DNA from: Ramazzottius varieornatus
Taxonomy: Eukaryota; Animalia; Tardigrada
DNA: 64,000 nt
Direction of reading: 5' to 3'
NCBI GenBank assembly: GCA_001949185.1
Contig: BDGG01000005.1
Span: 682,001 to 746,000 of the forward strand
Shown here: in pieces, positions 7,117 through 55,300 of the stretch
Layout: the number at the start of each line of letters is the position of its first letter
Numbering within the stretch: the stretch's first letter is position 1
The notes under the pieces: model-generated
What the model was told of the DNA's origin: nothing
Databases searched by the model: none
What the model saw: the letters and a program-made list of their open reading frames with translations, nothing else
Position numbers and translations under genes: made by a program

Positions 7117-10100
7117 TCAAACACCAGCCTGGCCTCGCACTTGTTGCCACTTGGCGTTGGTAGTTTTCAGTCGGAGTACCGCACAGACAACCACGCTGGC
7201 CGACTTGAACGTCAGCTTCTTCCGCTGTTCATTCAGGACTCCTGTCGCCGGTGTGCGTCGCATCGATGCTGGCCGGATACCATCCAAGGCAATTTTCTTA
7301 CAAAACTCATCGGTACTGTTTATGATTATATCGTCGATCAACGTAATTAGGTACCGCTTTTGGTGGACGAGGTTTTTCCTGTAGGACTCTGCCCGCAGAC
7401 ACTTGGTCTTCCACATGTTTCGGTTCACATCGACCTGCTCGTCATTATCCTTCTTCCACATGGTCAAGATTCTTTCACGCTCATACTGTGCATCTTTCTG
7501 CCTCAGTTCACCTAAAAAACCACGTAAGAATGAAAATCACCTCATAGAGCATTTTACACATCATGTGGATGTTCAAAAACCAGCCCTCATCCCTCATCAC
7601 ACACTTGCATACAGCCCAAAGGTGAGACGTTAACGTCTTGATGTATGCAGGAGGTTGCTGACAGTTTCAGAAATGACCACTGTTTTCTCGAGCACTTGCG
7701 GACAAAGCCATGATGGTAACTAAGCTAACCCAAGTATGCAGGTACGTGATGAATTGATGCTGATTACTCTTTTGTCGCTTTGGGATATCTAAACGGAAAA
7801 TTGGCTCACCTTTAACTCTGACCAGTTGGACTTCCGTTTCCCGCAGTTCCTTCTGCAGTCGCTCTCTTTCCTGTTCTTCCCTTTCTCTGCCAGCTTGTTC
7901 GATCTCCAGTCTCAGGTCCCTCTGACGGTATCTGGCATGTAGCTCAGCAAGTTCCGCTTCGGTCTTCTTCAGTAACGACAACAGAAGGTCCTTCCCTTGG
8001 TCGGCCATTTGGTCTTCTTTCTTCAACATCTCCAGTTCGCCTCTAAGGTCTTCGTTTTGCGCTTCCATATGTCTCAAAGCCATTTCCAGCGAGTCTCTGG
8101 TCAAAACTAGCTGGTTGATGTTCTCCCGGAGGAAGTCAATCTTACCCAGCAGTTGCTCCCGTTCGGCATTGAAGTTTTCTTTGTTCTCGTTGTGTCCATT
8201 TTGCTGGAAGACTGCAGAAGTTGTGAGGTTCAGTTGGTTCGATGCCCTAAGAATGGCTTCGCTTCCGGTACGCAGGTCTTTCAAGGCATTCTTGAGGGTC
8301 TCCGACATGGACGTGTTCATGATAGAATCGTCCATGCCGATGTCGTCACCACTTGCTGGAGAAACATCCCTTGTAGACTTATCCGGTGTAGCTGAAAAAT
8401 GATGCACAAAAGTTAAGAAAGGCTAGAAGAATAATGCTCAGTCTCAGTTCATAAACTGGGAGCTCGTCAGATCATGTTTTCAGGTGGCGCACTCTCCAAA
8501 TTGATATCCTTCCAATCGTGCGCCACTTGGGAACGATCAGGTCGAGTTTGTTTGCTGAGCTCCCGATGAAATAAAGTCTTATATTTTCGCGATTTTCCGC
8601 TCGCAAGTTTTTCTGCTTTTAAACATGAAGATGAAAAAAGAAAATCAACATTACAGATTCAACATGGCTAGCCTTAGTATTCGAACTCATACTTTGGTGT
8701 TGGAGGACTGAAAGACTTTCTTGAATAATTCGGTGGATCTCATCGACATGAGTTTTCTCCATATCTCGGATCTTGCTCTCGTATTTGCTGATGAGACTCT
8801 TCGAGTCACCGTTCAGAACAGAACGAGGCATGAAAGACGTTGAGCCTTCGTCACTGGAGGAAGAAGCTCCGGACTGGTGGAGATGGCGAATGGTCGTTCG
8901 GTACTTGTTCTGGGTCTTGCCGTGTCGGTCGTTCAAAGAGGCCAGCTCCAGAGCCATGGCTTCGATCTGATTCTCCTTTAGCACGATGGAATGCTCCAGC
9001 TCTCTCGTGGTGGCTTTGAGGCCGGTCAACTCTGTGAGCACCTCGTCGATGTCTGGGACGGGAAGGTCGGTCTGGGCTTCCTCGTCGGCGATCTCCGTTA
9101 TCTTCAACGACGGAACTAAAAAATCACAGAATAATCATGTACATCCTTTTTGGGAATCTAACATTCTTCACATTTCGACAAAGATACTCTTACACACACC
9201 ATTCACTTACCGGCTTCTGGAATATTGCCGCCACTCACAATGATCACCGATGACGTCAGAATATGCTCTGCAGAAAGACGGACAAAATTAAAACTTCCAG
9301 AATGCTTTTGAAGCTTGAAATGATCTTTACTGGGTTTTTCTTACCCGATTCTTGGTTGATTTCGGGTTGAACATCGGTCTGGACTTCCGCGCTGGTGAAG
9401 AATCTCTCATCGGCACCAACCGCAGCGTCTTTCCCACCGCTACTTTGCACCTTCACTTTTTCGTTCTCTGCGATGGTCAGCGTACGGTCAGCTTGCTCAA
9501 TCGTTTCCGCCTGTTTTCCAAAGAAACTATCATCGTGGATGACCGGGAGCTCGATCTCGGTTTCGGTTTGCACAGAGCAGTCTTCGAGGTTGGTCTTGTT
9601 GAAGGACTCGTCCATAGAAGCTTCCAGTAGGTCCCGAAGGTGCGATATCTCCGCGTCCTTGTCTTTCAGCAACGGCTCAAATATCTCCACAGACCTGTCG
9701 GGAGCGTTGCGAAGTACGTCAACTTCTTCTCGAAGGGATGAGTTGGCAAGCTCCATCTCTTCCAGCTGACGGGCTAAGCTGGAGGAGTTGTCGTTGAACT
9801 GTTTCTGGATGGCTTTCATGGCCGCATCCTTCTGCATCGTCTCACTCTTCATGATGTCTAAAACGGAGACAAACTGATGGAAATTGTTGAGCGAACAAAG
9901 CAACAGACTCGAAGGAGGAGCGGACCAACCGATGAGAACGGGTAGGTCCACCTGCAGAATAATGCGGTCTACCACAAACCTGCATACATCCTAATGTGCA
10001 CTTTGTATGACACTCATGTATGCAGGTTCGTGAAAAGAGCGCTGTCAGTCTCAGCAACCAGGCTTTCTCATCTCCCGAATCTAAGCATAATATTGTTGAT

Positions 10101-13100
10101 GTACCTATTAGGTTCTTGAAGCTTTGAGCTTGGACACTCTTATCTTGTGCGATGAGCTCAGTTTGCTCTAGTCTCTTCTTGACTTCCTGAAGCTCTTGCT
10201 TCATTCGTCCAAGTTCGCCAAGGTCGTTGTTCTTTTCTGACAGTTCCTTCTCAAGCTCAGCAATTCTGGCCGACTTCTTCGCCAAGTCATCCTCCCAGCT
10301 CTTTTGTTGTTCTTCCCAAATCTCCGCCGTGGTTTCCATCTCTTCAACCAGTGCCTGGTTCTTCTGCTCGAACTCACCCATTCGTTTAGAGATGTCGTCG
10401 TTGACGGAGACTTCTCGAGTAAGATCGAGTTCGTGGTCTTTTTCGTCCAGGGAATGCTTGAGAGAGTCGAGATCCAAGCGAGCTTGGACGAGCTGCGATT
10501 CTTGCTGTTCTATTATCCGATGACAGCCGTCCACTTCTCGCTGCAGGTAGTTGACCTGTGCTCTCAGGTCTTCCACCATTTCATCTTCCCCAAAACTGAA
10601 CTTCGCGTTATCAACCTACAAAAAACAGATTTGTACATTAGTTACGGCTGCGAGTAATTGGAAAGTGTTGCAAGTGTTGCAAGATGCATTTACCAGGTCG
10701 GCAACCAAAAAATCATCGACTGCATGAACCTGCAGACTTGTTCACCGTAGCAGACGCACAAGTCAATGTATGCAGGTAAAAGATCTGGCGTCACAACTTT
10801 CCCTCTCATCTCATTTTTTCTACGTTTATTCCAGGTTGTAGAATTTTCTGGACAAAATTATGAAATAAGTATTGACTTGGAATTGAGTCTGACTGAAGAA
10901 CCTCACCTGTTGTCGTAGGTGAGCGATATCTAAATCTTGTTGCTCGATCTGCTGCTGAAAGACTTGGCAGTCCCTAATTGCTCGCTGCTCGTTATGTCTG
11001 ACCCTCTCCAGCTCCGTCTGGAGATCTGTCACTCGTCTATCCCTCTCCGCTTCGTTTATCCGGTTCCGCGCTTCCAGTTCGTCTTTCAAGTCCATGATCT
11101 GCTGTCGCAGATCGTCGAAACTCATGAAGAAGTCATCCGTTAGCGTTCGTTCGGGCGAAGGGGAACGCAAGAATCCACTCAGTTCCAGCTTGAGCTTCTC
11201 CATCTGCCGCTGATTCCGTTGTTCCTGAAAAACCAAACCACTCAATCAACACCGCATTGGGAAGACTGGAAGAGCGAAAAACAAAGCCAGAGAAGTAACG
11301 AACCTGATTTCTTTGGTCGTTCAGCTGTTTCTCCAGTTCGTTCACAACTTCTTCTCTTTGTCTCAGCAGGTCTTCCTTCAGCTGCAAGTTTTCACTCAAA
11401 GCCTCTTTGCCTTTCACCAAACTCTCAGTGTGTTCCATGGCGGACCGCAACTGACTTTCGAGGTCTTCAGAGATCTGTTTCAACTGTAGAACTCTCTCTT
11501 GGTGTTTCTCATTCTCCCTCCACGAGTCTTCGACCGTCTTGACCAGCTTCAGATACTCTTCGCGTTCCGACTCGCGGTCCGCGCTAAGTTCCTCGATGAA
11601 GCGCTTGTCTGCTCTGGTCTTCTCCGTCAACCTCTGCACTTGCTGTGTTAGATCGTTGATCGAAAGCTCTAAGGTATTCTTCTCTTTGAGAAAGTTCTCT
11701 TGCATGGTGGAAATCTGTGTTTCGTGGGCGGATCTCTGCGGGTCTGCTTCGGGTACTTCGGTGTGGGGAGCCCGCACAGGTCGCGACAGTTTCTGGACCG
11801 AGACCTGGATCTCCTCCATGACACCCTTGACGTACATGTCGTCCGTCCAGTCGTCCGACGTTATCACCTCTTCCACGTAGTTGTAGAAGGTGTTCAGACC
11901 CGGAGTCTGCGTCGTGTCGGTGGGTGGTTCACTCTTCATGTCTGACAGTTTATGAAGCCCGTCGCGCACCGCTGACAAAATTTTCTTTGTCCGTTCCTCC
12001 GAAGCTAATCTGTAAAATACACACACGTTCAACCAGCTGGTAAACTTTTATCTCCCGCAAAATATTGCATGGTTTATCGACACAAGATATCTCGCAAGTC
12101 AGTCAACCAACACTTTTCGGAATAATTTCAGGCCAAATTTACCCTGAATTCTTTGTGCTATTTCTAAGTACAAAATCATAACATTTGCTTCCACGGGGTT
12201 TTAAAAAATCAGTACAACCATGATATCTGCCAAACAGCCTTTCCACTGAACCTAGAGAAAATCGAATAAATGGGTTGTCACTTTTCTCGAGTAAATAATT
12301 TAATTACGATCCACTGGCCGCATACAGAGAAAAACAGCAGCTGGCTCGTCCATCAAGTGGACATGGACGACATGGGTTGTTTGCTGAAAATATTACGGAG
12401 CGAGGCTTACTTGTCCATTTTTAGCTGGGCAACATCTTTCATTATGGTGTCATTTTCCGCTTCGAGTCGTCTGGCCACCTTTTCGCGCTCATCACATAAC
12501 TCTTGAAGCTGCAACAAGACAAGAAGACCATTGGTCAAATATTATGAGCAAGAGAGAACAGTCCGTACAGAATGGTTCGATTCGAGTTTGAGAATGTTTA
12601 CATCTGCAGATAAGAGGCTGCATTGTCAATGTCGCACAAGCAACAGCGACCAAAAGTCTAAAGTGCCCTACTAAGCCGTCGCAGGCGGTCAAACGCTTCT
12701 CAATCATCGTTTGCGAACTTTGCGGTGTAAATCACATATGCAAAGTTTACACGCAAAAATATACAGCTGGCGGCGTTCCCCATCAAGAATGTTTGAAAAT
12801 TTACACTGTCATTCAGATGTTCAACAGCACCATCAAAACTTCGAAAACTTCCCGCTATGATGGAAAAAAGTCCTGTCAATACAAACTCACAATTGGCGCT
12901 TTATTTCTACTAGTCAAGTACCTGCATACACAAACTGACATTCTTACAGTTAAGTCCTTGTATGCAGGTCGGTGATACTTACAGAGACTTTTACTTTTCG
13001 GTGAAATCCTATCATAAATGTTTGTTCGATCGTTAAACGGCGGAACACAACTTTGCGAGAAGGACCATCATGTCCGACGAACACAATAGTTTATTCCGAA

Positions 13101-15075
13101 AAAGCCCCATTAATTCCTGTCCGATGTATCTTCCTGTAACATATTTCTCTGACCTAAATGGTCTCCCAATTTCATACCAGAGCTTCAAAACGCACCCTGA
13201 GCCAGTCATTCATACGCGCTAGTTGGGACATGGCCAGATAGTCTTCGGCAATTCTATTTTCCATACTTCACAATAATCACAACTCTCCTAGAACATGCTG
13301 GTGGGTTATGGCAGACAACAATAATTACAAGGCATGCCCGAATAATCCTCCTTCCTCATCGAGCAAACAAGAATTTCTTCTTTGATACGTCGCTTTACAA
13401 TTACATGGGGGAATCGTAAAAGTTACTGGAACATATCCATGGGAATCTATTCCGTAAGTACTTTCCGCTCGACTTACAACTCAATCGCCAAACGCAAAAG
13501 TGTTCCGAAGGACTGAAGTTGGACTTAGATTAGATCCAATTTCGAAACCTCTCAATAGAGAACGGATTCAGGATAAGATAAGGAAGTACCAATTTCCGCG
13601 AATGTGTTCCTTGTGCAAAAGTCAGTAACAAATTAGGGTCCAAACAAAATCACTTACGAGAATTTTCTCGGATAGGACAATCCTTCTAAAACTTCCCGTG
13701 AGATTTCGGAGGAGCTTTTTAGGTTATGGGTTCGTGGAAAAATATTCCGCCGAAAAAACCTTCGGAGATTGAGACAAGAATTCAAAAGTCACTCGTGGAG
13801 CTTCGAATGGAATTTTTCAGGGGACAACGATCGACGGTAGGCTTGAAATAACTCGAACCTGAGAATCAATAATAACCTGAGCGCGGCTATCGACCAGAAA
13901 ATGGACGGGACACAGGGTTGGCCTATTACGTGTGACGGCTGCAGTGCGCCATTCGCAGGTAAACAGCGCAGCCCCGTCGACCTCATCCATTATCCACATT
14001 CCACTTGCATCATATCTAACCCCCTCTTTACCTTGTCTCAATGTAACCGCCAAAGAAGTACGAAGTATGAAGTTAGCTCATAGACAAACCTCATCCTTCA
14101 CCTTTCTGAACTGTCTGCAAAACCGACAAAAGCCACTGTCAACTTTTGTCCAATTTTTGGAATCAACTTCCTCGTCCATTTTTCTTGTCACAAAAATTTC
14201 CAAAAAATATAGCCCTACTTTGCAATCCCCCACACTATGTCCAGAAGGACTCTCGGAGCTCACCTACCAACACGACCCACCAAAATACGTCCGAATTCAA
14301 GAACTTGTTTCGTATTAACTTGGAAGGTCGGTAAATTAAAAGCACCATCTTTCAGGACCTTGCACACAAGTGTTGCCAGGGAAGCGGGCTAAACACTGTA
14401 TGCAGGTCCGTGACAAGTGGTGACCAATCGTGAATGATCATATCTCTGCAAATGAAATTAATCTCATAACTTGGCTACCTTTGTGACATCCCCACGAAGT
14501 GTTTCCGTTTCTTGGCATTCCAGCTTCAGCGCGTAGATTTCACTGATGTAATCTTCCTGTCTTTGGGAGCACTGCTTCTCGAAGTACAGTCTCAGCTTAT
14601 CCATCTCGCGTTTGTTCTCCTCTTGGTAACGCTTCTTCTGTCGGCTGACTTCCTTCTGAAGTTTCTGCTCCCATTCCACCGACGCGCTCTCCACCACTTT
14701 GTCCCCTTGTCCTCCGCGATCCTTCGAGACATGCTGGAGCATTCCGGTGGCATCCCTCAGCATCTTCTTCAGGTTCTGCACTTCTTCCCGCAGCATTTCC
14801 ACTTCCGTCACCGTACTTTCTTCCAGCAACACCGATATGACGTCCATTAGCTTTTCTTCAGGCTCATGGTTATACACCATGGAGTAGATCCGTTGGGCCA
14901 ATCGAGACTTGAGTAGGTCGTCGTCTGAGGCGCCGTTGACGTTATTACGTGGCGTTGGAACTTCTTCGTGATGCACTTCTGAACTTCGTCCTCCACCGTT
15001 GAGATTAGCATCTTCCTGGCGTGGTTTTCGTCCGTTGACTGTCTTCTTACTCTTGTTCTTGGTTGAGGCCGACAT
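7117..15075 (-). CDS. PCNT: Pericentrin/AKAP9(Plp)-like centrosomal coiled-coil scaffold with C-terminal PACT domain (~10 exons, roughly 1,400 aa)
   Basis: The last exon encodes CLRAESYRKNLVHQKRYL...TFKSASVVVCAVLRLK...KW, which matches the PACT motifs LRAESFRKALxYQKxYL and RFRxAVxxxxAxxRM..W. Upstream E/K/L/Q-rich coiled-coil ORFs are linked by GT-AG introns. The 5' end and exon set are approximate. Confidence 0.8.
7603..7743. repeat. Two family B cassettes (7603-7652, 7694-7743) in the last PACT-gene intron
   Basis: ACTTGCATAC-N30-GTATGCAGGA and ACTTGCGGAC-N30-GTATGCAGGT. Confidence 0.8.
8458..8564. mobile_element. Family A MITE-like palindromic element, intronic
   Basis: Terminal GGGAGCTC...GAGCTCCC enclosing CAGGTGGCGCAC-N25-GTGCGCCACTTG (8481-8529). 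Confidence 0.7.
9978..10027. repeat. Family B cassette, intronic
   Basis: ACCTGCATAC-N30-GTATGCAGGT with perfect arms. Confidence 0.9.
10728..10777. repeat. Family B cassette, intronic
   Basis: ACCTGCAGAC-N30-GTATGCAGGT. Confidence 0.85.
12920..12969. repeat. Family B cassette, intronic
   Basis: ACCTGCATAC-N30-GTATGCAGGT with perfect arms. Confidence 0.9.
14357..14407. repeat. Family B cassette, intronic
   Basis: ACCTTGCACAC-N30-GTATGCAGGT. Confidence 0.75.
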
Positions 15076-15800
15076 GTTGAGCAGTTACGGGATGAAAGCA
15101 ACAGGTACATCAGTCATTCATCACAGAATCCAGGTGAGCAATATTACCAATCAATCAACAATCAAGAGAATACTTCACTCTAAACATTCAGCGTGTAGTA
15201 CGGAGAATCTTCTCTTCACTCAAGAGTAGTGCAAATAGCGCTTATCCAAACTGACCTCCTCTCAGATCATGATGAGCAAAGCTGTCCTGTCCAGTTTAAC
15301 CACAGGAAGGTGCAAGCCTCTGGCCAAAAATAGCCACTTTAAAATCTTTGAGGCGAAGATCAAGATTCAAGAAGAAGGCACTGCAGGCTATCAGTTGAAA
15401 TGATCGAAGCAAAACAGAAGGGCGGTGGCGCAAAGTCTGATTGGGTAAACTGTTGTGTTATATACGTCCGTGACATATATGACATTACAACCTATAACAC
15501 AACAGTTATTGCGGGTTCACGGTTCGAAAACTCGAACGGAATGGTCAGGACCCGAAAGAGACTGCTGTTCTCCACTGTACGAGAATCAGCGAGGATGTTT
15601 TATCACAAAAGTGTCTTCAGGTCAACAGATAAACCCAACGGATAGCAATGGTGTCTGGCAGCAAAACCATAAAACAACACAATTGCCTCAACCTTACAGC
15701 ATAATACAGATGAAATTGAAAAATCGCGCACCGCTGCGCTTTTACAGCGAGAAATCTGAATGCTGCAATAGCCATATTAATTTTGTACAGAGAGAACACC

Positions 15801-18800
15801 TCAGGAACCTCGCTTGTTGCCGCCCAGGATGTCAGGCAGCTTTACGATGTCTTCCCGTGCGACGTGAGAATGTGGCAGTTCACCGTGTTCACTGCCTTGT
15901 GAAACGGATACGTCTAGCTCAATGCCATCTTCCTCGATCTGAAACACAATCAAATTATGAGCCTTGCTTTATTTAACGAACAACGATAATAAAGGGTAGT
16001 AGCCTCATCACAATGTGTTACAGAAATATGACCTCGTGATAATCGAATTGCCCGGCTGATTCAGTCCGATGAACCTCAGCGTTGCTGTAGTCTGAATGTT
16101 GGCTCTCCGATGGATATATGGCGGGATTGAAAGTACCAAACTTCGATTGATGAAAAAGATGGGTAGGATGCAAGTTCGAGGCATCCACGAATTCGGTGAC
16201 GGACTCGTATTCCAGAGTTACGACCTGTCCGCGACTCCGCCGCCTCCCAGGGACCAACCCATCTTCCTCGTCTTCTTCAGTTTCGACCTCTTCTTCTGTG
16301 TGCTCGGCACTACTTGTGGCTTCCTGGTTTCCTCTCTTCACGCCCCGTTTTCTTCGTGCCTTTCGCTTTTTCCCTGAAAACAAAGCAGACTGCATCCTGC
16401 TTTCAGATTTATATTGTACCATGACGACTCACTCTTCCTATCTAACTGCGAGAGTGTAATTCTCGCCAGCCTGGGATTTGTCACGTATTCCCCATCCGAC
16501 AGTGTGCAGTCCGAACTATCTGTAATCGTCTCTGAATCGCCTTCAAACACTTCCTTTTTCTGCGGCTTGGCTCTTGATCGATAATCTTCACGAGTGTCCA
16601 TTGTAGGCCTCACGTTGTAACCGTCAACTACCCGGTTGCCTTTTACCCAATCATCTTTGTCGTTTTCCGCTGATCCATGGTCAGTTCGCGACTCTGATTC
16701 AACCGGTGGCAGACGCTTTTCTTCGACCTTACTGTTGGTTCTCGTATTATTAAATTTGTCAACTTGGTTCGTCACGGGTTCGAACATTTGACTGGAGGAT
16801 TTAAACGGTACAATTCTTCGGTCTTCGGGCCCTTCCCTTCTTGGCGAAGCATTCCGTTGCAGTATTTCCTTCACCACCTGCATGGTTTGTTCGGCTTCGT
16901 CCTTCGACATACGCCGTGTGGTCTGTTCGGCCACATCCCGCAACATTCTTCTCGATGTCTGGTCCGCTTCTTCCCTGGTCAAAAGCTTTGCAGTCTGTTC
17001 GCCTCGATCTTGTGACACTCTGCGAGGAGGAAGAGTTTGCTCGCCTTCATCCCGGGTCACTTGCTTTGTTGTTTGCTCACCGATATCGCGAAAGACCTTC
17101 CTCGGCTGGACTTCTTGGACAGTTTGCTCGCTTTGATGTCGAACTGGACGGGCCGTTTCAGCCTGGGCAGTTTGCTCACTCTGGTCATGAGTTACTTTGG
17201 GTACGGAGAGGCTGTCTAGTCTCTGCATGATCAAAGACGTCTCCGAAGTGACTGCGGGATCCTTTTCTGCCATGAAGTTGCCTTTACCTGAAACAGGAAT
17301 ATTATGGTTCAAACTTCAACAACTTCATACTAAATAGCGCTCCCAAAGCCTATATAATAACCAGCTGTATTCATGAAGTTGAACATTTGTTACCATTAAA
17401 GGGTTCGTCGCGGGTTTCTGTGTTATTACTTGCAGCCGGTATAAAAATCACTCTTTTGCCCGCTTTGGAAATGAACTCCTGTCGCTCGCGATTCAGAGCT
17501 CCCGTAACTCTGTCCTGGTCACGCAAAACCTCGACTGACTCTTCACACTCGCACGATTCCTCTGAGTACACTCCGGAAACCATTCCGCAGCTGCTCTCTT
17601 CCTCGACAATCTGTCTCTGTGCGGTCCTCTGGCTATCTGCCATTGGTTTCTGACCAGTCAAACTCCTAACCGCCTGATCAGGCGGAACCGACCTCTCTTG
17701 CCTACGTTCCTTCCCATTTTCCATGTAGGCGGTTCGGCTTCGTTCGTTCGGTACCGAGAAACCGCCAGCAGAGGCTGCTTGATGGGCAAGGACTTTTCCA
17801 TGAGGGTCCTTACGGCTTACCATCGGTAAGGCGCTCGACTTTTGTTCGACACCTGGCTGCGGATGCTGATTCCGTAGCGAGCCTTTGTCATGAGAAGTCC
17901 AGAAGCTCGATTCTTCTTTCTCCGGTTGGTGATAACTTTTCTGCCGCTCTTTCCGATGAGCGTCTTCGGCATGATGGACATGCCGATGGTGGTTGTTATC
18001 GTTAACGAGCGTATCCCAACTTGACGTTCTTATTTTCTCGCTCTCCTTTCGCGATGGTTTGTCGGTACTTCTTTCGTGGACCGAGTGATCATGAGAATGA
18101 GAATGATGACGTTCACGATGCAATCGCCGAGTGCCCGAATCAATCACGGTCCCGTCTTCTGATGGTGCTTCCTCCAGCGCTTTGTGTCTCTTTACTTCAC
18201 CTGAGGTTTTGGTTCGCTTTCCCGCAGATTGCTCCGCCGATTGTTTGTGCATCATGGAGGAATGAGGCTTCGCCATATGAACATCAGTTTGATGTCGTAT
18301 TTCGGAAGTTCGTCTGGCGTCCTCGTCCGACTCTACAGGTCGACTACGCTTGACGTGCTCGGTACGACTGCCTGAGCGTCTATCCGGACTGTCGAGACTA
18401 TTCAACGATATTCGTTTTCTCACGTCCCCATCATTCGTTTTGAACTGAACGGCGCTCATACGCTCAGTGATTTCCTTGACGAGTTCGGCATCGGTCGTCG
18501 GTTCATTCTTCTTCCCAAAGTGCTGTTTGGAGTACAGCAACGCATCGATGTCGTTCAAGCTCCTCACTTTCTCGACATCCACCTCCCAGATTTCACTTGG
18601 CCTCTTCTTTGAACTCTTTGGCGATCTGGCATGATTGCTGTGATCTTCACGGTCAATCCGAGCTCGTTCACCTTCCCTCTCCCTCGCTTTCTTCGCATCC
18701 TCATCCCAAACGTCACTTGAGTGTTTCCTCCAGCTCTTCGACCTTTCTGACCTGCCGGCAGAGTGGCCAGAATCTTCACGGTCACTTCGAGTTGGATGTG

Positions 18801-21800
18801 CTGCTCTCCTGGATGATCTTTCCGCCTTCGGCGATCCTCCTTTGTCCTTGCGGATCTTACTAGACCGATGTAGCGACGTTGTGCCTGAGACACTCGACTC
18901 ACGCGAAATAACACTGGCTGATGAGCTGGAAGTATCAGGAGGCTTCAACGCATCTTGCTCGTTCTTCTTCGAACGCTTTCTCGATTTCCCTCCCTCATCA
19001 GACGTATTTTTAGCACTTTTAATTCCCTGTTTACCCTTCCTGTTAGACTGTGAAGAGCCGTCAGAATGGTCGCTGGAGAAGACCTCGTGCAGGTTGCGAC
19101 TGCTGTCCGGCTGCAACCGATTTACATTCATCTCCGTACTGCTGACTTCCTTGTTGGCATTTCGCTTCCGGTCTCGAGACTTCGATGGATTCTCTAGAGA
19201 TCCGGAAGCGCTGCTAGACCTTCTTTCCAGCTTCTTGTCCACCCTTTCCCGAGTAACGGTTTTGGTTCTGATGCCTGCTCTTGTATCGTTTTCGTGCAAA
19301 TGACTCACGCTGTGAGCGGAATGATCTCGCTCATCCACCGTAATCTTTTCCTTCTTGTCCTTCTTTCTCGAAGTTCTACTTCTGATTATCGACGAGCGCA
19401 TCGAAGAGCCAGACCAAGCCTCATTCGCTGAGCTTCCTGCCGGCAAACGCTGCCTACTTTCGATCATGCTGTCCGCACTTCCGTCCTTCTTTGCCCCAGT
19501 TTCAGAAATCTCTTCCCGTGAACGGCTGTCGCGAATATTGTGCTTGCGTCGTTCAGCTCGCCGTTTAGATTCCCTCGACTGTCGAGCTTCCTTCTTCGTT
19601 GCATCACTTGTACTGCGTACACTTTCAGTAGTGCTGTCCGACTTGTCCGAACCTCGACTATCCACGGAGACACTTTTTCTTGCCGAGAGCGTTCTCGTCC
19701 TTCCACCATGTTCGCGAGATAATCCTGGCTTCCTTCTTTCCGAAGAAGAGCGACGCTTTTCCGTGGTGCGTCTGTCGTTCTTTGTAACCTTATCAGGCCT
19801 GTCTGGTCGATCGAGTGAATCTTCCCTTACGAAGTCCGTTCGGTGAGTCTGCTCTTCTAACGAGTCAGCTCGCTCTGTGGGGCGACGTGGTCCCGTTTCA
19901 TCCCTATCGGGTAAGGTTCCATTTGACCGGCGGGATCCTTGTTTACGCGGTGCGCTGTCGTCCTCATCCGCACGGCGAACACCTTCCCTTCTATCTTCTG
20001 AAAGATGTCGGTCGACATCCTTCTTCCTGTGAGTCTTATCTGCTGGCCGACCTGAGGTCTTTCTCGCAATGTCCGGTTCATCGTCTTCGATCGCTTCATC
20101 GTTGCGCTTGTCCCGTCTGTCTCTACGGGAATCCTCACTTCTTTCCCGATCTTCATCTTTACCTCTACGCTCATTCGGCATATCTTTTTCAGACAGGTCA
20201 GCAACACGGTCGTCCTTTCGTGGTTTGCTATTTGTTGGCCCTCGACGACTTCCGAACGCGTCGTCTGAGGCCATTTCCTCGTCGGAGTGGTGTTTCGGGC
20301 CCGATCGGTGCTCGTTGGCAGTACCGTGTTTCCCCGAATCTCTGTTATGATGATGTTGGGTTGCCTCTTTGAAGTTAATGTCTGCTTCATCAGAACGATG
20401 CAGGCCGGGCTTCTTCAGTGACTCGTTGTAGGTTTCTCCAGAGATCCTCCCATCTCTACCGGCTTTACCTATCAAAATATCATAACCTAACCATGCCGTC
20501 GTTGAATAATTCTACAATTTTCAAAGAACACGTTACCTGCTTGCGATGGCGAATCTTCGCCAGATAGCGGGGGACTGTTCAATAATATTCTCTGCTGTCG
20601 TTCCATGGACCTCTGATCTTCCCCTCTGGACCGTTTCGGGTGGTTGGCGGGCGTCACTTCCGCTTGATCATGGTCGTCATTGTTAATCCCGTGCTCGTTG
20701 TCCTTGCGAGGTCGACTCCGAAAGGGGCCTTTGGTCAACCCTCCATCCGAAGGACTTCTTGGCGACAGCTCGTCTGGACTATCCACACGTTGCCGATCAC
20801 CAAAAGCCCTTTTCAGCTGAGAAGAAATGCTTCTTTTTTCGACGTCAAAAATTGACCCATCTTGCGGAACCTTTCCTTCGGATTTGTCTGTGGTAATTTC
20901 TGATTTACCATCCTTTGTCTCTACACTAGCTGCTTTCGTCTCTACTTCAGAAGCCGCCTGTTCTTCCAGGAAGTCTTCTGGCGTGTCATCAGGCAGTTCG
21001 CTCTCTGTGTTCCGCTTCTTTGACCGCCGACTCGGATGATTCTGGTGCTTTTCTTTAAATTTATGAATTTTGAGAAGAGCTGCTTCTTCGTCAAGGTTTG
21101 GATCGGCAGGAAACTTGCGACGTCGCTCTTTATTCTCATGCTTATTCAATGCTCGCTTTGTATCTGCAACGTCATCGCCATCCACCTGTTTCCCAACTGT
21201 CTTCCGATCATGATCGGATGTCCCATTGGGACTTTGGCTGTTTTTCGCATCATCGTCATCTTTCAAAATTCGTTTTTCACCGACACCGCTCATACTGCGA
21301 TCCTGCTCTTGACCACCATCTTCCAGTTCGCCTAGCCTACTATGCCGAGTCGGGTCTTTCTCCTTGCTCAACTGCTTCTCATCAAACCTTTCGCCGCTGT
21401 CAGACTCCGCCATCTCTCTCCTGTCGGCCTCCAGTGATGCCCTTCTCGGATTCTTCTGCGACTTTGCCCTCGGCGCTGCCGTCCTTCGACTCGGTGCCTC
21501 GACATCCTCACTATCGTCCGTCGCGTCCTGCCCATCCCAACCTGCAGCCTTCCTTAATGTTATCTTATTCCGATCGGCTTCAGAGTGCAATTCACTCTGA
21601 CCCTTCGCTTCGGCCCGCCTGGATCTGTCCATGTGTTCCGTCTCTTCCTCGTCTGGGGCTACATGACCTTCTGGTTTGCGCTTTCCGATATCGGCATCCG
21701 GTGCAAAATCTTCATTGTCATTTCTCTCTGTCTTACCAGACCGTACTTTCGAAAATCGGCCATCCACTTCCGTCCGGGGTTTGATTATCCGCGACTCCAC

Positions 21801-24800
21801 CAGCGGACTTTTTCTCTCTCGTGCGCCAAAGTCCACTGTTTCCTCCTCCAGAAATCCTCGCTCAACACTTCCGCTCTTCCTGAGACCATCTACGGTTTCA
21901 CGCTGCCTAGTCGGTACAAATGGCGGCTCGGCCAGTCGATGCCGAGCTTCGCGTGGACTGTCAGTTATCCTTCGATCCAAGTCATTCTCAACGTCGGCTG
22001 CATAGCCCCGACTCACTCTGTCGGTTTTGATATTATTGTCATCTAACTGAGATCGTGGGTGTTTGGTGCGAGATTCACTGGTGGACCCTGTTCTTCTTCC
22101 GGGTTCGTCTCTGGAGTCTCCTGCGACATCATTCCTCGCCGCACGGGCCCTCTGAGAGTGCTCCTTTCTGCGAGTTGAACCGTCGTCATCCCGCTGAGCT
22201 TTCGAACCTGGTCGACGGCGCCCACGAAATTCCCCTGAAGGACTCGATCTCTCACGTTCTCTGTCGTTTACGGTATCCTTTGCGTACCCTTGGTCGATAC
22301 TCGCTTTATTACGTTCTCGAACATCACTACGACCATCATTAGGTCGAGATCGACGTGTTGCGGTCCGCGGATAGTCCCTTGTGCCCGCCTTCTCCTCAGA
22401 GTCCACATCACTGCTGTTAATGCGATCGACACTTCTGCGGGCTTGTTTCCTATTCGACCTGCCATCTCGTGGATCATCCGTGCCTAATCTATCGTTTGCC
22501 CTTGATCGACTCGTTTTCTTACGCTCAAGATCGTCCACACTACCATCTTCCGCGTAGTCTCGATCAATAGTCCGTGTCCTAGGCTGGCCAACAGCACGAC
22601 GGTCGAGCGACTGCGAGCGACCTTCTCTATCGGCTGGAGAATCAGCTCTTCCCCTGCTTTTCGCATTACCAGTGTGACCACCGTCGATACTTTCACGACT
22701 GTCCGGTGCGTTATCTCGGTGACCTTCCCGCCCTGACCGACCGCGAGATCGACCGGAAGTGGTCATTCTTCTACGGCCAAAACCGTTCACATTGTCTTCC
22801 AAGTGTCTTCGATCAGTACGAGTATCACGTTCGCTGGCACCACCACGGTCAAGCGGCTGCGAATGACGTCCTCTATCCACCGGAGACGCGGTTCTCCCCC
22901 TGTCTTTCAGATCACCGGTGTTACTGTCGTTCATGTTTCCACGAGTACGTTCCCTGTACAGCGTGTTATCACGTTCAGCAGTCCGACTTGAACGACTACG
23001 AGCTTCACCAGAGGTCCTTGCTAATGCACGACCTGAATTTTCCGTAGCTACTACCTCTTCGTACCCTCGACCAATGCTTGGCGTTCTTCGCCGTCTACGA
23101 GCACGTTGGTCCCTCGTGGCAGAAAGCGGTCTCGCTCCGCTGTTTAACCTGTTGTCTAGCTGATCATTTGAATCTGATCGATTCCGAGCGCCAGCGGAAG
23201 TACGGCTTCTGTTGTATTTCATGTCGTCCGCCGGATCCGCCTGACCTAAGTCCGCACTTTCGCTCTTTCGAGCACGAGTCGCCTTGCTCTCATATCGGTC
23301 GTACGGCACTGAGCGCGCCCTGTTCGATCGACGCTGACTTTCGTACGATGCCCTGGCTCGTTTTCGATCCGTTTCTCTGTCCGCAGCACGATCTTCATCA
23401 CGATCATGGTCCATGCTTTCTGCCCTAGGCTTTCTCTTTCTTGGTTGGGCAATGCCTCGTCTCAAAGAGCTTCTACTCGGCCGGCTGCCGAATCGAGATG
23501 CGTTGGGTCTTCGCTCTACATTGCCTTCCGCGTAAGCCCGATCCACACTTTCCGTCCTTCGAGCTCGAGCAGCCTTGTTCCGGCGTCCGTCATGAGGTTC
23601 TGAGCGCGCTCTGTCAATTTGGCTTTGACTACCGTAAGACACGCTCGCTCGTTTTCGACCTGGTTCCACGTCTGGACCTTCATTGCGAAGACGGTCCGTG
23701 CCTTCTGCTTTACGGTGGCTCTGTCCTGGCTGGAAGGTATCTCGTCTCCAGTGACTTCTGCTCGGTTGGTCACGAGACCCCTCAGAAGCCTTACTTCTGC
23801 TGTTTACTCTCCGTACAACGTCTTCCGCACTACGACGCACTGCATTCTCTGTTCTTCTCCGTACGCCATCTCGCCTGTAGGCACTTGCAGCTGAGCGAGG
23901 TCCACCAGGACGAGCACCATCTATGGTCGTAACCGAGCCTGTCCTTCCCCAATTCCTATCTTCCCTTCCTCCTCCTGCAACGTAACCGTCTTCTTCCTCT
24001 GATGCTTCGCGTTGTCTTCGCTTCTGGCCGTCGCTGCGTTGTGATCGAGCTTCGTGTGAAGGATAAGATTCTCTCCGCGAGAATTCTTCCGACGAGCGCC
24101 GAGACGGCCTCTCTTTTTGACGATTACCATTTAGCTCAGGTCTTTTACTGAGTCCTCTCAGCAGCGACACGTCACTTCGCAGTGACGTCACCGACTGTAG
24201 ACTTCGATCTGCTCCTGTGCGACTGTCCCTATCTCTTGCATCATTACTCCGACGTTCAGCTCGGTTTCGTCGGTTCCATGGTTCTGCCAGTGAGTGCTCC
24301 GAGAAAACTTCACCTTCGTCATTAGCACGTTCGTTTCTCCTCAACCGTTCAACTGGCTGCTTTTGTACCTGTTTCAAAAACCTTGCTGCGTTCCTTACGG
24401 GATCCGAGTACTTCCTCGTACTTCCCCCTTCTTCATCTCTGTCTCTTCTTCTCTGGCGCTTGTTCTGCGGCCCACTACCCTCTCTCCCTCGCGAACTTCT
24501 CTCTCCCTTAGAAGCTCGATCACCCAGAGAAACGTCGGATCGATCCGACATACGATCGGCTGATTCGCCACTTCCTTCACGACGCGCTTCACCACCCTTT
24601 GCTAACTTGCTTCCCTCCTCGAAGTCATCAGCTCGATCTGGTTTTCCCGCTCGAGTAAATCGTGAGCGCCTAGTTTGTCCGCCTGCAGGTTCGTGCTCTA
24701 TTTGAGTCTTACCAGACTGTTCCGAGTACTTGTGGTAGTGCAATGGGCGGTTTCGATCCGAAGGTTCTTTAGGGCGCCTTTCCAGTTGTCCGTTCTCGAC

Positions 24801-26275
24801 GAGGTCGTCGTCGTCACTTCCGTCTTCATCCATTTCGTCCTGTTGCTGCTGTTCCACTTCGCTTATTAGCTGCTGAATGTAATCCCTGTCAACCGTCCAG
24901 CATTATTACAAAGTTTTGTCGATATTGCATCCACTGAACGAGATCCTCAATCTCACCGAATTACTTACAGGTCTCACCTTGGAAGTTGAATGGTATCGCG
25001 GTCATCCGTATGCAAATCCGTTCCATCACTAGGTTTATGCAGTATAGTTTTATTAGTTCTACTCTGCTGTTTTGAAGGAAGAGACCTTCCATCGGTGGGA
25101 AGGCCAAGCTTGCGGTGGTCGGACAGTCGGTCGGTTCCTGGATTGGTGAACGACCTTTTCCTTCGCCTACTCGAGTTATGGTCCTCCATCGAAACGGCCC
25201 CTTCCAGCTCACTATCGCTCGAACCATACCGCTTCGCATTCCCCCCACCCGTGTTTTGTCCACGAGGAAGGTGCTCTGGATAACTTTGCGATCTTTTCTT
25301 CTCTGCCGGGAACAGACCAGACATTGACTGGCGGCTTAGTTGTTTCATGCTCAGATGAAGATGGGAATTTCTGTTTTCCTCTTCGTCGGTTTGTGAGCTT
25401 CGATCAACACTGTCCGCTCTCACGTGAACACTGACACTCTGTGACAGTCGGTGGTTGGTGTCTTGAACTGAAATGTTCTTCACGATACTGACACGACTAC
25501 CGGCGCCCACAGACCGTACGTCTTTCTGTCGGGAGTGGTCGTAGTACTCTAAAGGTTCGGGCGCGCCCCAGCATCCACCGTCGACACACGTACACCCTTC
25601 GCAGTCTTCGCCCTTTCGACCCGGTCCAATCGGACGCTGGAAAGCGCGGAAACTACCGGAAAGAGGTCGGGATATCGTCTTGGGCATTGCAAGAGGAAGC
25701 GCGGAACCTGTCGATCGAGCTGTTTCCCCGTGATAACCTGTAAAAGCAAGGCCGGCATCCAATAAGGCTCTGCTGTACATCAATGCATAGCAAGGGGGAT
25801 CTTGTCGAAGCGACAAAACGTCTAGATGCGTGTGACCAATATTTACCAATGAAGCGCGGAGCCCGTGGATCGTAACCGCAACCTCCATCACTGGAAAAGT
25901 TTTCTCCATGGAGAAAAAACCCTAAAACATAAAGACATTCGCAATGGCGTAATGACTTTTCCAGCTGAAGCCCTCGTATTTTTATATACTGGAAGTGGAC
26001 GTACCGCAAGCACGAGGCAAGTTATGACGTTGAAGTGCCATATTGTCATTAGCAAGACTTTTCCGAATTGACTGCAAAGTAGAGCGACGAGGTGCTCTGC
26101 CCATCGACCGCGACACATTCCGTTCGTTGTTCTTCGCACCGACCATCATCATATTGTTCCGCAGGATGCTGGCTCTGCTCACAGGTACCACGGCTGCAGC
26201 TGCACTACCTAGACTCGGACGATATGGGCGTGGACCATCGCGCTTGTTTGTGGGAAGAGAAATGCTGCGCGACAT
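15801..26275 (-). CDS. Giant (~3,300 aa) Arg/Ser/Asp/Glu-rich low-complexity, probably disordered protein of unknown function (~8 exons, two of 3-4.4 kb)
   Basis: Long open frames 17371-20475 and 20487-24857, plus flanking ORFs, can be joined in frame by GT-AG introns near 26004/25923, 25845/25739, 24977/24888, 20535/20470, 17392/17289, 16432/16374 and 16032/15939. Stop codon at 15801-15803. No recognisable globular domain. Confidence 0.75.
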
Positions 26276-40588: not shown

Positions 40589-41612
40589 GGTGCGTTCTGC
40601 GAACGTGGAGATTTATCAGTATTCAGAACGGTATTTTCTCTGCAGAGAACAACCATTAGAAACGAACAACGGGATCGAAGCTGGAATAAAAGGTTTCACA
40701 ATTGTCAATTATAGAATTACCGTTAGAAGAAGACACACTTCCCTCTCGACAGCATCCGGCAAAGGATGTATGTGAAAACGCTGCGCTTCCTGTAGTAATA
40801 TCGGATCGAGTTAACAGTAGTGGACACTAGGAAAGCCCAAAAGAAGAACGAATGGAAAGGAAACTTACCGGAGCTCGCATCATGTGATGTTATAAGTTTT
40901 CAGAACAGCTAGACAAAAGCTGTGATTTCTATAAACGCTTTTCGTGGCCGTTCATGGTCTGTGCTTGACAATATCGAAGGCGACAGCGACGAAATTTTCC
41001 TCGAACTCTTGACTACAAATTGTGGAGCATGCGAAGCCTGAAACACTGTGCAAAACCGGGAAACCTGTGCATTTTACGTAACAGAAAACCACTGTCTGAA
41101 ATTTTGGAAGTTCTCCTCCACCACTCGAGCCTCGACTGCCGCCTCGAGGAAACTTCATGTTGTTCTCCGCTTCATGTTATTCTCCGCTTCACCCACCAGC
41201 TCGACGGTCATTTGAGTCATTTAGAGCACGACGTTGAGTCATGGACCAGAGCGGGCCGCACTAACGTGCACCTAGATACGGGCCTAGTCTGATATAGGCG
41301 ACCAGACGTTTGTAGGTGCGTGATGCAGAGGAACTGGTTGATATGCCCGTGAGCACGTTGTACGTACGTATGAACTCTAGGGCCTCTGGCTCTCTAGGCG
41401 ATTTTAAAGTTTATCAGCATCAGAAATCCCTGCTGTTTTGATGTGTCAGCGACGTCTTCACAGTTCTCGTTCCTCTGAAGCGCTTTCCATCACGTTTCCC
41501 TGGACTTGGATTGATAAGTTGAATTTGGTTTACGTGGAAAAGTAGTTTGTAGCAGTGAGATGCGGTTCAAGACGTCAAGATTTCTGTTCCCAGCATTCAT
41601 GAGTTTCGAGCC

Positions 41613-45893: not shown

Positions 45894-48947
<3,054 letters not shown>

Positions 48948-50939: not shown

Positions 50940-51114
50940 CGTACACGCGCCGAGCCTAATTACCGGCCTGGACGAAAATTCTGGCCACCGACCAAATGCG
51001 GCTGCTGCCAGCTTCCTATGTAAAATCGCCATTGAGTCGATCGAAGGTGCTGCCGGTTTGGGGCGGTGGCCGGAAATTTTTTCCAGGCCGGTAGTTAAGC
51101 CAAGTGCGTGTACG
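50940..51114. mobile_element. 175-bp MITE-like foldback element with ~57-bp terminal inverted repeats
   Basis: Left arm CGTACACGCGCCGAGCCTAATTACCGGCCTGGACGAAAATTCTGGCCACCG versus reverse complement of the right arm CGTACACGCACTTGGCTTAACTACCGGCCTGGAAAAAATTTCCGGCCACCG. Confidence 0.75.
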
Positions 51115-52306: not shown

Positions 52307-55300
52307 ATGGACTATCAGAAAGGCTACCAAAGGATGGACGGATCGCACAACGCCCCCCCTCTTCCCGACTATCCAAGTGGACCTTCGATCTCCGTTCTGC
52401 CTGAATATGGCGGAGGCGAAGTCTACACAGTGCCATCCGAAGTTTCTCATAAGCGTTCGAAAGCCTTCACTCATGTTTCCGATCTGGATGTCTTCTTTAG
52501 ACAAGTGTACAAATATCACCAGCGAAATGGCTACTTTTGCATGTAAGTCTATATATGCGATACTGAGGCAGATGGAACGAATCAGCCACCCTTTGAATAT
52601 ACTCTGTATTACCAGGTTGCGCGTGCATTTTTATTACGTGACTGACTCAGGCTGTTTGCTCGGTTGTCAACATCAGTGGCTTACGTGCAGTTGTTTTGTA
52701 GGATGTTGCAAGAATCGCTGGAAGTTTTTCAGTTTCTCTACGTTGTGATATTCTCGACGTTTCTATTGGAGTGTGTGGACTACGATATCCTCTTTGCCAA
52801 CAAGATACCCGACTCCTGGAGGCCGTACATAGAGCCTTCATGGTGGAACAGTACAACGTACGGTCACAAAGTGACTATCAGCGATGCTGTGATACCTGCT
52901 AGTCAATGTGTAAAGCATTTCGGAAGTGGTGTCACGTTCATGATCGTGCTAGCCACGGCATTTTGGTGTTGGAGACTAGCCAAAGTCTTCTACAACTTTT
53001 TCAGCTATGCGGAAACACGCAGATTTTACAGGTGAGATCAAATTTCAAGTAGCTGCATACAGGGAGACTGTACGGTTAACGTTATGATTGAGTATGCAGG
53101 TTTAGACCATTGTGTCCTTCGTAGGATTGCCCTCAAAATCGAAGATCACGAGCTGAGCAACCTGACATGGCACGAAGTTCTCCAACGGTTGCTGGCGGCC
53201 CAAAAGACTTACCAGATGTGCAGAGCGAAGACAGAGCTGACCGAGTTGGATGTCTACCATCGGATACTTCGCGTGGAGAACTTCCTCGTATCGATGGTCA
53301 ACAAGCAAACCGTGCCTGTCAAAGTACGCTTGCCTTTCCTCGGGCAGTCTACTTTCCTTAGCAAAAGCTACCTGTGGAACCTTGAGCTCATCCTGTTCTG
53401 GCGATGGGGCTTTGGGTCGCTCTTCGAACAGAAATGGACACTGAGGGAAGAATTCAAAGTTTACGGACGAAGACAAGAAGTCGCGGAGAAACTGAGGAGG
53501 AGGATTGCCTACTTTGCTTTGGTCAATCTTCTCCTGTCTCCATTCATTCTTGGTTAGCACTATCTTCCAGTAGATTTTACTTATCGAGTTCTACCAGATT
53601 TAAACAATATTATTTCACGGTGAATTTGTTGTAAGATTATTTTTTCGTGGTGGAATTCATGATGATTTTTTATCTTGCAGTTTTCCGGGTATTGTACGCC
53701 TTCTTCAACTACGCCGACGTGATCAAGCGGGATCCAAGTACGTTGGGAACACGTCGTTGGTCCAGTTATGCCAAGCTGTACTTGCGGCACTTCAACGAGG
53801 TGGACCACGAGATGATTGCACGACTCAACAGAGCCTACCGTCCCGCGACGCAGTACATGAACATCACTTCGCCGGTGTTGACCATCCTGGCCAAGAATGT
53901 GGCTTTCGTGGCGGGGTCCCTGCTGATGGTACTGGTCATCTGTACTGTCCTTGATGAAGATGTGCTGAAAGTCTCCCATATGCTCACCACCCTTACCATA
54001 CTAGGTACTTCAGAAAATTGTTCTGGTTCCTTACTGAAGTTCTTCCATAGCTGAAATTTTAAAGTCACTGGAAAGTTGATGAGAAAAGTGGGCGATAGGT
54101 TAAACAGAGAAACAATTGAAGATGGAAGACCGGAAAGCGAAATCACTGGGTCCATCGCGTATCTGCATACAATAGGCCGGCGACTCTGACACTGTGCGCC
54201 TGTATGCAGGTTTCAACAGTCTTGATGTAATGTAGTTTTATTTTATATCGGTTTTCGGACAGTAAAGTTTATTTGTGGTTTCGTTTTACAGGTATCATTG
54301 TGGCTGCCTGTCGAGCTTGCATCCCTGACGAGAATGCAGTCTACAACCCGGAAGTTCTCATGTCTTCCGTGATATCCGAAATTCACTACTGTCCTGAAAC
54401 ATGGAAAGGCCGGGCCCACACTTCGGACGTTCGCAACGAGTTCGCCAACCTGTTCCAGCTTCGCCTCAGCCACATGTTCGAAGAGCTACTCAGCCCCATT
54501 GTTACGCCCCTCCTTCTCTACACTTCCCTCCGTGAACACAGTCTGCAAATAGTTGACTTCTTCCGTAACTTCACGGTGGATCTGGTGGGTGTGGGCGATG
54601 TCTGTTCGTTCGCTGAAATGGACATCAGGAAGCACGGTGATCCCGAATGGACACCCGATACTCTCATCGACCCAGACAGGATGATCGATGACGACCATCA
54701 GAGAGCGGATCATGGCAAGACGGAAATGTCTCTGATACACTTCAAACTGACCAATCCCGAATGGAAACCTCCTCAGGAAGCGGCGTGGTTCATGCAGAAA
54801 CTGCGAGAAGAAGTGGAAAAAGGCGCTCAATCAGGTAAAATCAATGAGCCAGTCAATGTACTGGAAACGTGAAGAGTATGGCCTGGCGTTCACATAGCCA
54901 CCCAGTACAAGTCGACAGTCATCACAACCTGCATACTCCAAACAATATGTTTGTGGTGTATATCGGGGTATGCAGGTGATGGCTGTGTGTGTCCTCACTC
55001 ACATGTGTACGCCTGACTGTACGTTTGCTGAGTGCTTCGGTATGCAGGTTCATGAACTGTCTATAGTATGGGACGAACAAGTGGGAATGTTGTTGAATTG
55101 ACTGCTTCTAGGTGGACAAGAGGTTCTGGCGTCTCTAGCGCCACTCGGTGGACGAGCTCAAGATTTCGTGGCGACGAGTAGAGCCACGGGAGACGTTCCT
55201 GTCGGGCAAGTTCGTAGTCGAGAAGGTGCCTTGTCGGGTTCGGTGAATAACGGCCTGTTAGAGACTGCCTTGTCCAACTCCAACATGGAACGGAGTATGT

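What the first reader, a model, noticed from the sequence alone, without database searches (positions are those of the whole stretch)
7603..55049. Family B: dispersed 10-bp inverted arms around a fixed-length (30-31 nt) spacer of non-conserved sequence
Seen: ten cassettes ACCTGCATAC-Nx-GTATGCAGGT at 7603, 7694, 9978, 10728, 12920, 14357 (all N30), 53051, 54161, 54927 (N31) and 55001 (N29, degenerate). A solo right arm sits at 4253. All ten paired copies are intronic, in genes on opposite strands (PACT gene minus, ATG9 plus). The spacers show no similarity that I can see. Established: ordinary MITE copies share internal sequence. Inference: conserved arms and spacing with a free spacer fit a binding or cleavage site for a dimeric protein, a recombination signal, or a structural RNA/DNA hairpin. 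The right arm also reads TGCAG|GT, a fused acceptor/donor like a recursive splice site, and the left arm could mask it.
Basis: partly seen in the sequence, partly recalled or inferred. Interest (0 to 1): 0.8.

Follow-up and report, generated by a model that had tools for sequence, protein, structure and literature searches.

The report
Fixed-gap inverted motif in tardigrade introns
Two tardigrade genes carry ten intronic copies of an inverted 10-base motif pair held 29-31 bases apart by unrelated sequence, likely a two-handed protein-binding site that selection would keep after it arose, probably from an old miniature transposon.

Summary
In detail: ten cassettes with spacers of 30 (6), 31 (3) or 29 (1) nt, none in 30 shuffles. 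Only 3 of 10 are perfect; the arm extends weakly to about 17 bp. The window is a eutardigrade, very likely Ramazzottius varieornatus. Arms are 87% alike pairwise, while spacers match random intron DNA (29.4% vs 29.0%). There are no target-site duplications, no mirrored arm changes (0 of 14), and no close sibling among the run's genomic contigs. The cassette recurs elsewhere in the genome with other 29-32 nt spacers: in unclassified entries of a published repeat library, inside a hAT MITE, and on another contig. So the family was already collected as unclassified raw repeats, but I found no description of its rule. A catalogued MITE in the same window shows a milder form of the same pattern (core around N25, spacers 50% alike). 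Best reading: a selected, sequence-specific dyad binding site, probably MITE-derived, like C. elegans CERP2/HIM-17. No binding protein is shown. Recursive splicing is not supported.

The parts
7603..7652 (.). cassette, N30, 1+1 arm mismatches; first of a tandem pair (period 91)
7694..7743 (.). cassette, N30, left arm 3 mismatches
9978..10027 (.). cassette, N30, perfect arms; in spliced intron 9858-10104
10728..10777 (.). cassette, N30, left arm 1 mismatch; in spliced intron about 10616-10906
12920..12969 (.). cassette, N30, perfect arms; in spliced intron 12509-14478
14358..14407 (.). cassette, N30, left arm 3 mismatches (or one inserted base); same intron
53051..53101 (.). cassette, N31, filling over half of the 93-nt ATG9 intron 53032-53124
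54161..54211 (.). cassette, N31; in ATG9 intron 54005-54291
54927..54977 (.). cassette, N31, perfect arms; first of a tandem pair (period 74) in last ATG9 intron 54835-55111
55001..55049 (.). cassette, N29, left arm 3 mismatches
4253..4262 (+). solo right arm, about 270 nt past the BiP-like stop codon; best partner within 80 nt has 5 mismatches
4364..4409 (.). possible 11th, variant copy: 9-bp perfect inverted repeat, N26, both arms changed at the same two positions, preceded by the outer extension
7117..15075 (-). host gene 1: coiled-coil protein with C-terminal PACT domain (pericentrin/AKAP9-like); ends approximate
52307..55584 (+). host gene 2: ATG9 coding span (approximate)

Best explanation
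The cassette is likely a double-stranded DNA site read by a dimeric or two-handed protein, which would need both 10-17 bp half-sites facing each other 29-32 bp apart; it probably arose as the inner core of an ancient palindromic miniature transposon (MITE) and is likely kept by purifying selection. Shown: conserved arms, fixed distance, random spacers, no target-site duplication or outer inverted ends, intronic position, clustering in two genes, and recurrence elsewhere in the genome. Inferred: selection on arm sequence and distance. Inferred more weakly: MITE origin, by analogy with Family A in the same genome and C. elegans CERP2, and a host factor (for example a domesticated transposase) as reader. 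Not shown: the protein, or any effect on the host genes.
For: Arm cores are 0.87 alike pairwise, spacer positions 2-12 only 0.24-0.26. In Jukes-Cantor terms that is about 0.14 against at least 1.5 substitutions per site if they share an ancestor, yet length stays 29-31 in 10 of 10. Outside the window, counted by eye: spacers of 29, 29 (ramVar3-55.raw), 30, 29 (ramVar4-421.raw), 32 (ramVar1-111.raw) and 29 (hAT MITE entries ramVar1-362.raw/-144.raw, same element as curated ramVar1-394) in PMC11071193 Table S3. Two more, inferred at 30 and 29 from loose ends, lie on another genomic contig of run X1. Arm changes are not mirrored (0 of 14), so sequence rather than pairing is conserved. Cassettes occur in genes of both strands. 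Family A (ramVar1-7#DNA/Sola, 123 bp, 56-bp TIR, 4-bp TSD) has a 12-bp core pair at N25-26 in 11 of 12 window copies, core 0.75 alike and spacers 0.50 against a 0.29 null, an intermediate state. Precedent: the MITE-derived inverted motif pair of CERP2, bound by THAP protein HIM-17 (10.1101/2022.01.21.477252). Copies cluster: largest empty gap 38.7 kb, p 0.005 against uniform placement of 8 sites.
Against: No protein, binding or chromatin data. No MITE hallmark survives to prove the origin (no TSD, no outer TIR). One arm is much better kept than the other (1 vs 13 changes, Fisher p 0.001), always the same one on the chromosome (6 of 6 asymmetric copies, sign test p 0.03), which a symmetric homodimer does not predict. 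CERP2 copies still match their MITE consensus and act at promoters, unlike these. Tandem pairs and RepeatModeler families suggest sequence-level copying at some time. The two spacers within ramVar3-55.raw agree at 14 of 26 defined positions (by eye), so subfamilies may exist. The variant at 4364 has mirrored changes, which points to arm-to-arm correction. Other tardigrade genomes could not be read; no H. exemplaris library entry was among the 16 exact-arm hits, though cells are cut at about 400 characters.
Confidence: 0.5

Rival explanations
1. It is a minimal (about 62 bp) non-autonomous DNA element, or a module carried by larger MITEs. Arms and spacing are kept only because a transposase needs them each time it copies, and many old master copies give unrelated spacers. 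There is no host function.
For: RepeatModeler built two raw families from tandem pairs of cassettes, one with the same 74-bp period as 54927/55001. A curated 673-bp hAT MITE carries one cassette. Family A subfamilies keep core and spacing while changing the loop. The terminal repeat of ramVar1-792#DNA resembles a variant arm over 12 bases (by eye).
Against: No TSD: at most 2 of 10 copies at any offset for 2-9 bp. No sibling: of 71,082 genomic contigs of X1, only one besides the source contig was laid on four cassettes, with arm-only 18-19 bp matches. Depth stayed at baseline over three ATG9 cassettes while Family A drew most of 1,122 records. The tool's seed rule is unknown, so weaker siblings could be missed. 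Arms only 7% from consensus beside fully random spacers need many unrelated masters.
Confidence: 0.22
2. The arms act as a hairpin stem (pre-mRNA or single-stranded DNA), for example tuning splicing speed, editing or repair, and the spacer is a loop of set size.
For: Arms pair in fold predictions. Spacers show slight extra self-pairing (Stouffer z -1.9 to -2.7; -1.0 to -2.1 once the innermost pair is fixed). The 4364 variant has mirrored changes. Contigs inside the two-cassette ATG9 intron were seen in runs X4 and X6.
Against: 0 of 14 changes are compensated. Sense and antisense strands fold alike, and G-U rescue does not favour the sense strand. A pairing-only constraint would not keep one sequence across copies. 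No Rfam match in the window. A solo perfect arm exists.
Confidence: 0.12
3. It is a recombination or cleavage signal with an RSS-like length rule, recognised by a recombinase or nuclease that cuts or joins at the arms.
For: A free spacer of fixed length between conserved motifs is the defining logic of 12/23 recombination signals (recalled).
Against: Identical inverted arms, not heptamer plus nonamer. Genomic contigs of X1 run straight through all eight cassettes laid, and no cassette-to-cassette joint was listed (table cut; contigs drop rare forms).
Confidence: 0.07
4. The right arm is a recursive (CAG|GT) splice site that the left arm masks.
For: On the sense strand 7 of 10 copies read CAG|GT and one reads AAG|GT. 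[quoted passage not shown]
Against: Two copies lose the AG on the sense strand. In the PACT gene the better-kept arm is the wrong one. Pyrimidines at -13..-4 average 5.0 vs 7.6 at 15 true acceptors (p 0.0002; three true ends were taken one base off). Donor GTRAG occurs in 0 of 10 vs 8 of 15. A cut at 53051 would leave a 25-nt piece. Six of seven host introns are under 300 nt. All listed joints across cassette introns use the outer sites (144 joints not shown).
Confidence: 0.04

Closest known systems
ramVar3-55.raw#Unknown and ramVar4-421.raw#Unknown (R. varieornatus repeat library, PMC11071193 Table S3)
   Same: Same arms, same outer extension, spacers 29-30, tandem pairs (periods 74 and 79). 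This is the same family.
   Different: Uncurated and unclassified; not in the curation table (one search found them only in Table S3). Their spacers differ from each other and, by eye, show no clear match to the window's. The free-spacer rule is not described in the parts read.
Family A MITE, ramVar1-7#DNA/Sola and relatives; core = upstream motif MRv-8 (PMC11609603)
   Same: Inverted core pair at a fixed distance (N25), better kept than loop and outer ends; mostly intronic here; same genome.
   Different: Different sequence; has long TIRs, a 4-bp TSD, a recognisable spacer consensus and very many copies.
C. elegans CERP2/CELE2 m1m2 motif pairs bound by HIM-17 (10.1101/2022.01.21.477252)
   Same: Inverted motif pair with a characteristic spacing, from a MITE, read by a transposase-related factor; both motifs are needed.
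   Different: m1 and m2 are two motifs spaced 10-30 bp, copies still match the MITE consensus, and function was shown at promoters. Here there is one motif twice, in introns, with no consensus outside the arms and no known factor.
V(D)J recombination signal sequences, 12/23 rule (recalled)
   Same: Spacer length conserved, spacer sequence largely free.
   Different: Heptamer and nonamer differ from each other and are not inverted copies; no recombination is seen here.
Recursive splice sites (AG|GT)
   Same: CAG|GT on the sense strand in 7 of 10 copies.
   Different: No pyrimidine tract, weak donor, short introns, palindromic partner.

Membership tests
MITE (non-autonomous DNA transposon) | short, non-coding, with terminal inverted repeats | tested here: met
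   50-64 bp with 10-17 bp inverted arms
MITE (non-autonomous DNA transposon) | target-site duplication | tested here: not met
   at most 2 of 10 copies at any symmetric offset, 2-9 bp
MITE (non-autonomous DNA transposon) | copies share internal sequence | tested here: not met
   29.4% vs 29.0% intron null, p 0.38; no sibling contig laid
MITE (non-autonomous DNA transposon) | high copy number | tested here: inconclusive
   10 in 64 kb, clustered; library families and one other contig show more; no genome held
MITE (non-autonomous DNA transposon) | ends shared with an autonomous transposase element | not testable with these tools
   no genome; library cells cut at about 400 characters
Co-opted MITE motif pair (CERP2/HIM-17 type) | inverted motif pair with narrow spacing | tested here: met
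Co-opted MITE motif pair (CERP2/HIM-17 type) | copies still align to a MITE consensus | tested here: not met
   flanks beyond -6 are 0.26-0.27 alike
Co-opted MITE motif pair (CERP2/HIM-17 type) | bound by a host factor, regulatory effect | not testable with these tools
   no chromatin or binding data
Recursive splice site | AG|GT on the sense strand | tested here: inconclusive
   7 CAG|GT, 1 AAG|GT, 2 without
Recursive splice site | polypyrimidine tract and usable regenerated donor | tested here: not met
   5.0 vs 7.6 pyrimidines; GTRAG 0 of 10 vs 8 of 15
Recursive splice site | splicing intermediates at the site | not testable with these tools
   only assembled contigs were available; listed joints use outer sites
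Structured RNA | compensatory changes or a known family | tested here: not met
   0 of 14 mirrored; 0 Rfam matches
Recombination signal sequence (12/23) | heptamer plus different nonamer | tested here: not met
   two inverted copies of one motif; RSS definition recalled

The most novel reading that the evidence does not exclude
Tardigrades have a genome-wide class of intronic dyad elements with a recombination-signal-like length rule. A dedicated factor, possibly a domesticated transposase, binds two half-sites across 30 free bases, in one polarity along the chromosome, and marks whole genes (several introns per gene) for a shared chromatin, replication or repair fate.
Probability: 0.2. Interest if true: 0.78.

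Novelty: new variant of a known kind. Interest (0 to 1): 0.5.

Why it matters
Almost no cis-elements are characterised in tardigrades. A sharply defined 20-34 bp signature with a fixed gap is easy to scan for, pull down and edit in a species with CRISPR and expression vectors (search listings and passages). It would show the end stage of MITE domestication, where only the binding dyad and its geometry remain, with Family A in the same genome as an intermediate. It also shows that repeat-library consensus sequences can hide a free spacer. If it proves to be plain transposon debris, it is still a useful correction to the unclassified library entries.

Tried and rejected
No whole genome is held, so the genome-wide spacer histogram could not be made. 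Metagenome scan for exact arms with N15-45: 94 loci, none at N30, 3 at N31 (2 distinct, one adapter-like). 42 of 94 are one near-identical palindrome with N22-23 in gut-type contigs, taken as unrelated. Viral scan: 7 loci, spacers spread 23-33. No RNA holder was listed on record; runs X4, X6 and X7 are RNA by guess but show GT-AG joints. Both X1 arm matches fell on one contig; I did not read this as genome-wide clustering, because the tool may favour contigs with two matches, and I made no copy-number estimate. A weak spacer consensus seen by eye and against letter shuffles was rejected after the intron null. A TA-flanked Tc1/mariner reading was rejected (TA outside the arm in under half of arms; TSD scan). 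Motif MRv-11 of PMC11609603 shares the arm's first 7 bases but ends differently and is probably the ordinary acceptor read backwards (inference). A GCM-type site (recalled motif) was considered and dropped because the arm is invariant at the one position where it departs. Literature searches found no description of this dyad; most subscription papers are not in the library. Four look-ups of earlier findings returned nothing. Library and loose-end spacers were compared by eye only, so their likeness to window spacers has no statistical test.
Full report
Observation. A mismatch scan finds the ten cassettes at the stated places and the solo arm at 4253. Allowing 3 mismatches in 20, ten of 13 arm pairs with spacers 0-100 fall at 29-31. 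Thirty Markov shuffles give 0.07 pairs in all and none at 30-31. An exact arm is expected 0.06 times per strand; it occurs 10 times on plus and 3 times on minus. Only three copies are perfect. A matrix built from the 20 arms finds no further paired copy: scores drop from 32.7 to pairs carried by a single known arm. A search for mirrored variants adds a candidate at 4364 (N26) and a weaker one at 41270.

Organism and context. An ATG9 exon is 77% identical to Hypsibius exemplaris and 70% to Paramacrobiotus metropolitanus. The window's other repeat, Family A, matches entries of the published Ramazzottius varieornatus library, so the window is very likely that species (inference). Six cassettes lie in a minus-strand gene with a PACT domain and four in plus-strand ATG9. 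Spliced contigs bridge the introns holding eight of them at canonical ends. The intron with 7603 and 7694 is inferred from sequence. Host introns are 93-297 nt, except one of 1,970 nt. No copy lies in 38.7 kb between the two genes (p 0.005 against uniform placement), although Family A copies do.

Anatomy. The arm core is 0.87 alike pairwise, the six bases outside it 0.41, further flanks 0.26-0.27, and spacer positions 2-12 0.24-0.26. Four core positions are invariant in 20 of 20 arms. None of 14 changes is mirrored in the partner arm, and there is no target-site duplication. Changes are lopsided: 13 on the left, 1 on the right, in the same chromosomal direction in 6 of 6 asymmetric copies, regardless of gene direction. 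The outer extension does not follow this pattern in ATG9, and I cannot explain the polarity. Spacers looked faintly alike against letter shuffles, but against random intron DNA they are not (29.4% vs 29.0%, p 0.38; one of four register tests p 0.045). They show at most slight self-pairing, equal on both strands.

Elsewhere in the genome. No assembly is held. In PMC11071193 I read part 2 of 6 of the text, searched supplement file 1, and read its parts 28 and 52; cells are cut at about 400 characters. It has 10 left-arm and 6 right-arm exact hits, all in R. varieornatus sheets. Counted by eye: ramVar3-55.raw holds two cassettes (N29, N29, period 74), ramVar4-421.raw two (N30, N29, period 79), ramVar1-111.raw one (N32), and a curated 673-bp hAT MITE family one (N29). 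In ramVar1-232.raw and four hAT rows the partner arm lies beyond the cut. Laying run X1 (which may be this DNA's source) on 8700-14700 brought only one other contig, matching arms of two cassettes for 18-19 bases and then diverging. Its loose ends imply spacers of 30 and 29, with only 2-3 letters of the partner arm visible. On ATG9, depth stayed at baseline over three cassettes, while Family A drew most of 1,122 records. So the length rule is general and the window's copies have no close siblings that this tool could see. Public metagenome and viral scans show no 30-31 peak.

Mechanism. If arms and spacers share an ancestor, spacers have changed at least ten times more than arms without losing their length. 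Neutral decay of one MITE cannot do that. Pairing alone cannot keep one sequence across copies and predicts mirrored changes, which are absent. That leaves sequence-specific recognition of both arms at a set distance. Selection could act at each transposition or in the host. The lack of TSDs, outer ends and siblings, and the clustering in several introns of the same genes, favour the host; tandem pairs, RepeatModeler families and carriage in a hAT MITE favour past copying. Family A shows a plausible route: a curated 123-bp palindromic DNA transposon whose central 12-bp cores stay at N25-26 in 11 of 12 window copies while spacers fall to 0.50 identity. In C. elegans, MITE-derived inverted motif pairs are bound by HIM-17 (10.1101/2022.01.21.477252; I read passages and the first part of the Results). 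I put the selected dyad at 0.5, transposition-level conservation at 0.22, hairpin at 0.12, recombination signal at 0.07 and recursive splicing at 0.04.

Recursive splicing. On the sense strand two copies lack the AG, pyrimidine content and donor strength are well below true sites, and one cut would leave 25 nt. All listed joints use the outer sites, though contigs cannot show rare intermediates and 144 joints were not shown. For this topic I saw only search listings and abstract openings.

Known or new. The family was already collected as unclassified raw consensus sequences. Searches found no description of the free-spacer rule. The arm is not among the 39 upstream motifs of PMC11609603 (I read part 2 of 5 and the supplement), whereas the Family A core is (MRv-8). 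It fails MITE membership on TSD and internal homogeneity but works like a MITE-derived motif pair. Verdict: real, a new variant of a known kind, interest 0.5; the bold reading, a polar gene-marking dyad with its own factor, has probability 0.2.

Noticed in passing
window 2584, 8481, 27532, 32883, 35359, 43877, 48039, 48453, 56453, 57899, 60464, 60524: Family A palindromic MITE: 12 copies, core pair at N25-26 in 11. Matches ramVar1-7#DNA/Sola and relatives and upstream motif MRv-8; very abundant in run X1.
   Followed up: yes
window 4364-4409: Variant cassette with N26 and the same two changes in both arms, 100 nt from the solo arm; it may record arm-to-arm correction.
   Followed up: partly
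window 54807-55139: Contigs inside the last ATG9 intron, which holds two cassettes, in runs X4 (depth 11.9 vs 167-211 spliced) and X6 (4.5 vs 11.3). Possible retention; the table was cut, so other introns cannot be compared, and no such contig was seen for four PACT-gene cassettes in X4.
   Followed up: partly
window 50940-51114: A third palindromic repeat (66-nt arms, 43-nt loop); other X1 contigs lay there, and it resembles ramVar3-35.raw by eye.
   Followed up: no
window 15448-15507 and 63804-63875: Perfect inverted repeats unrelated to Family B: 15-bp arms with a 30-nt loop, and 17-bp arms with a 38-nt loop.
   Followed up: no
window about 15800-25700, minus strand: Long stretch with strong strand skew that looks like very large exons of a low-complexity charged protein.
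   Followed up: no
loci L012, L001 and 40 others: 42 of 94 metagenome hits are one near-identical longer palindrome with the same 10-bp arms and N22-23, mostly near contig ends in gut-type assemblies; taken as unrelated.
   Followed up: no
PMC11071193 Table S3, ramVar1-792#DNA: Its terminal repeat starts with 12 bases equal to a variant Family B arm (by eye); a possible lead to the parent transposon.
   Followed up: no
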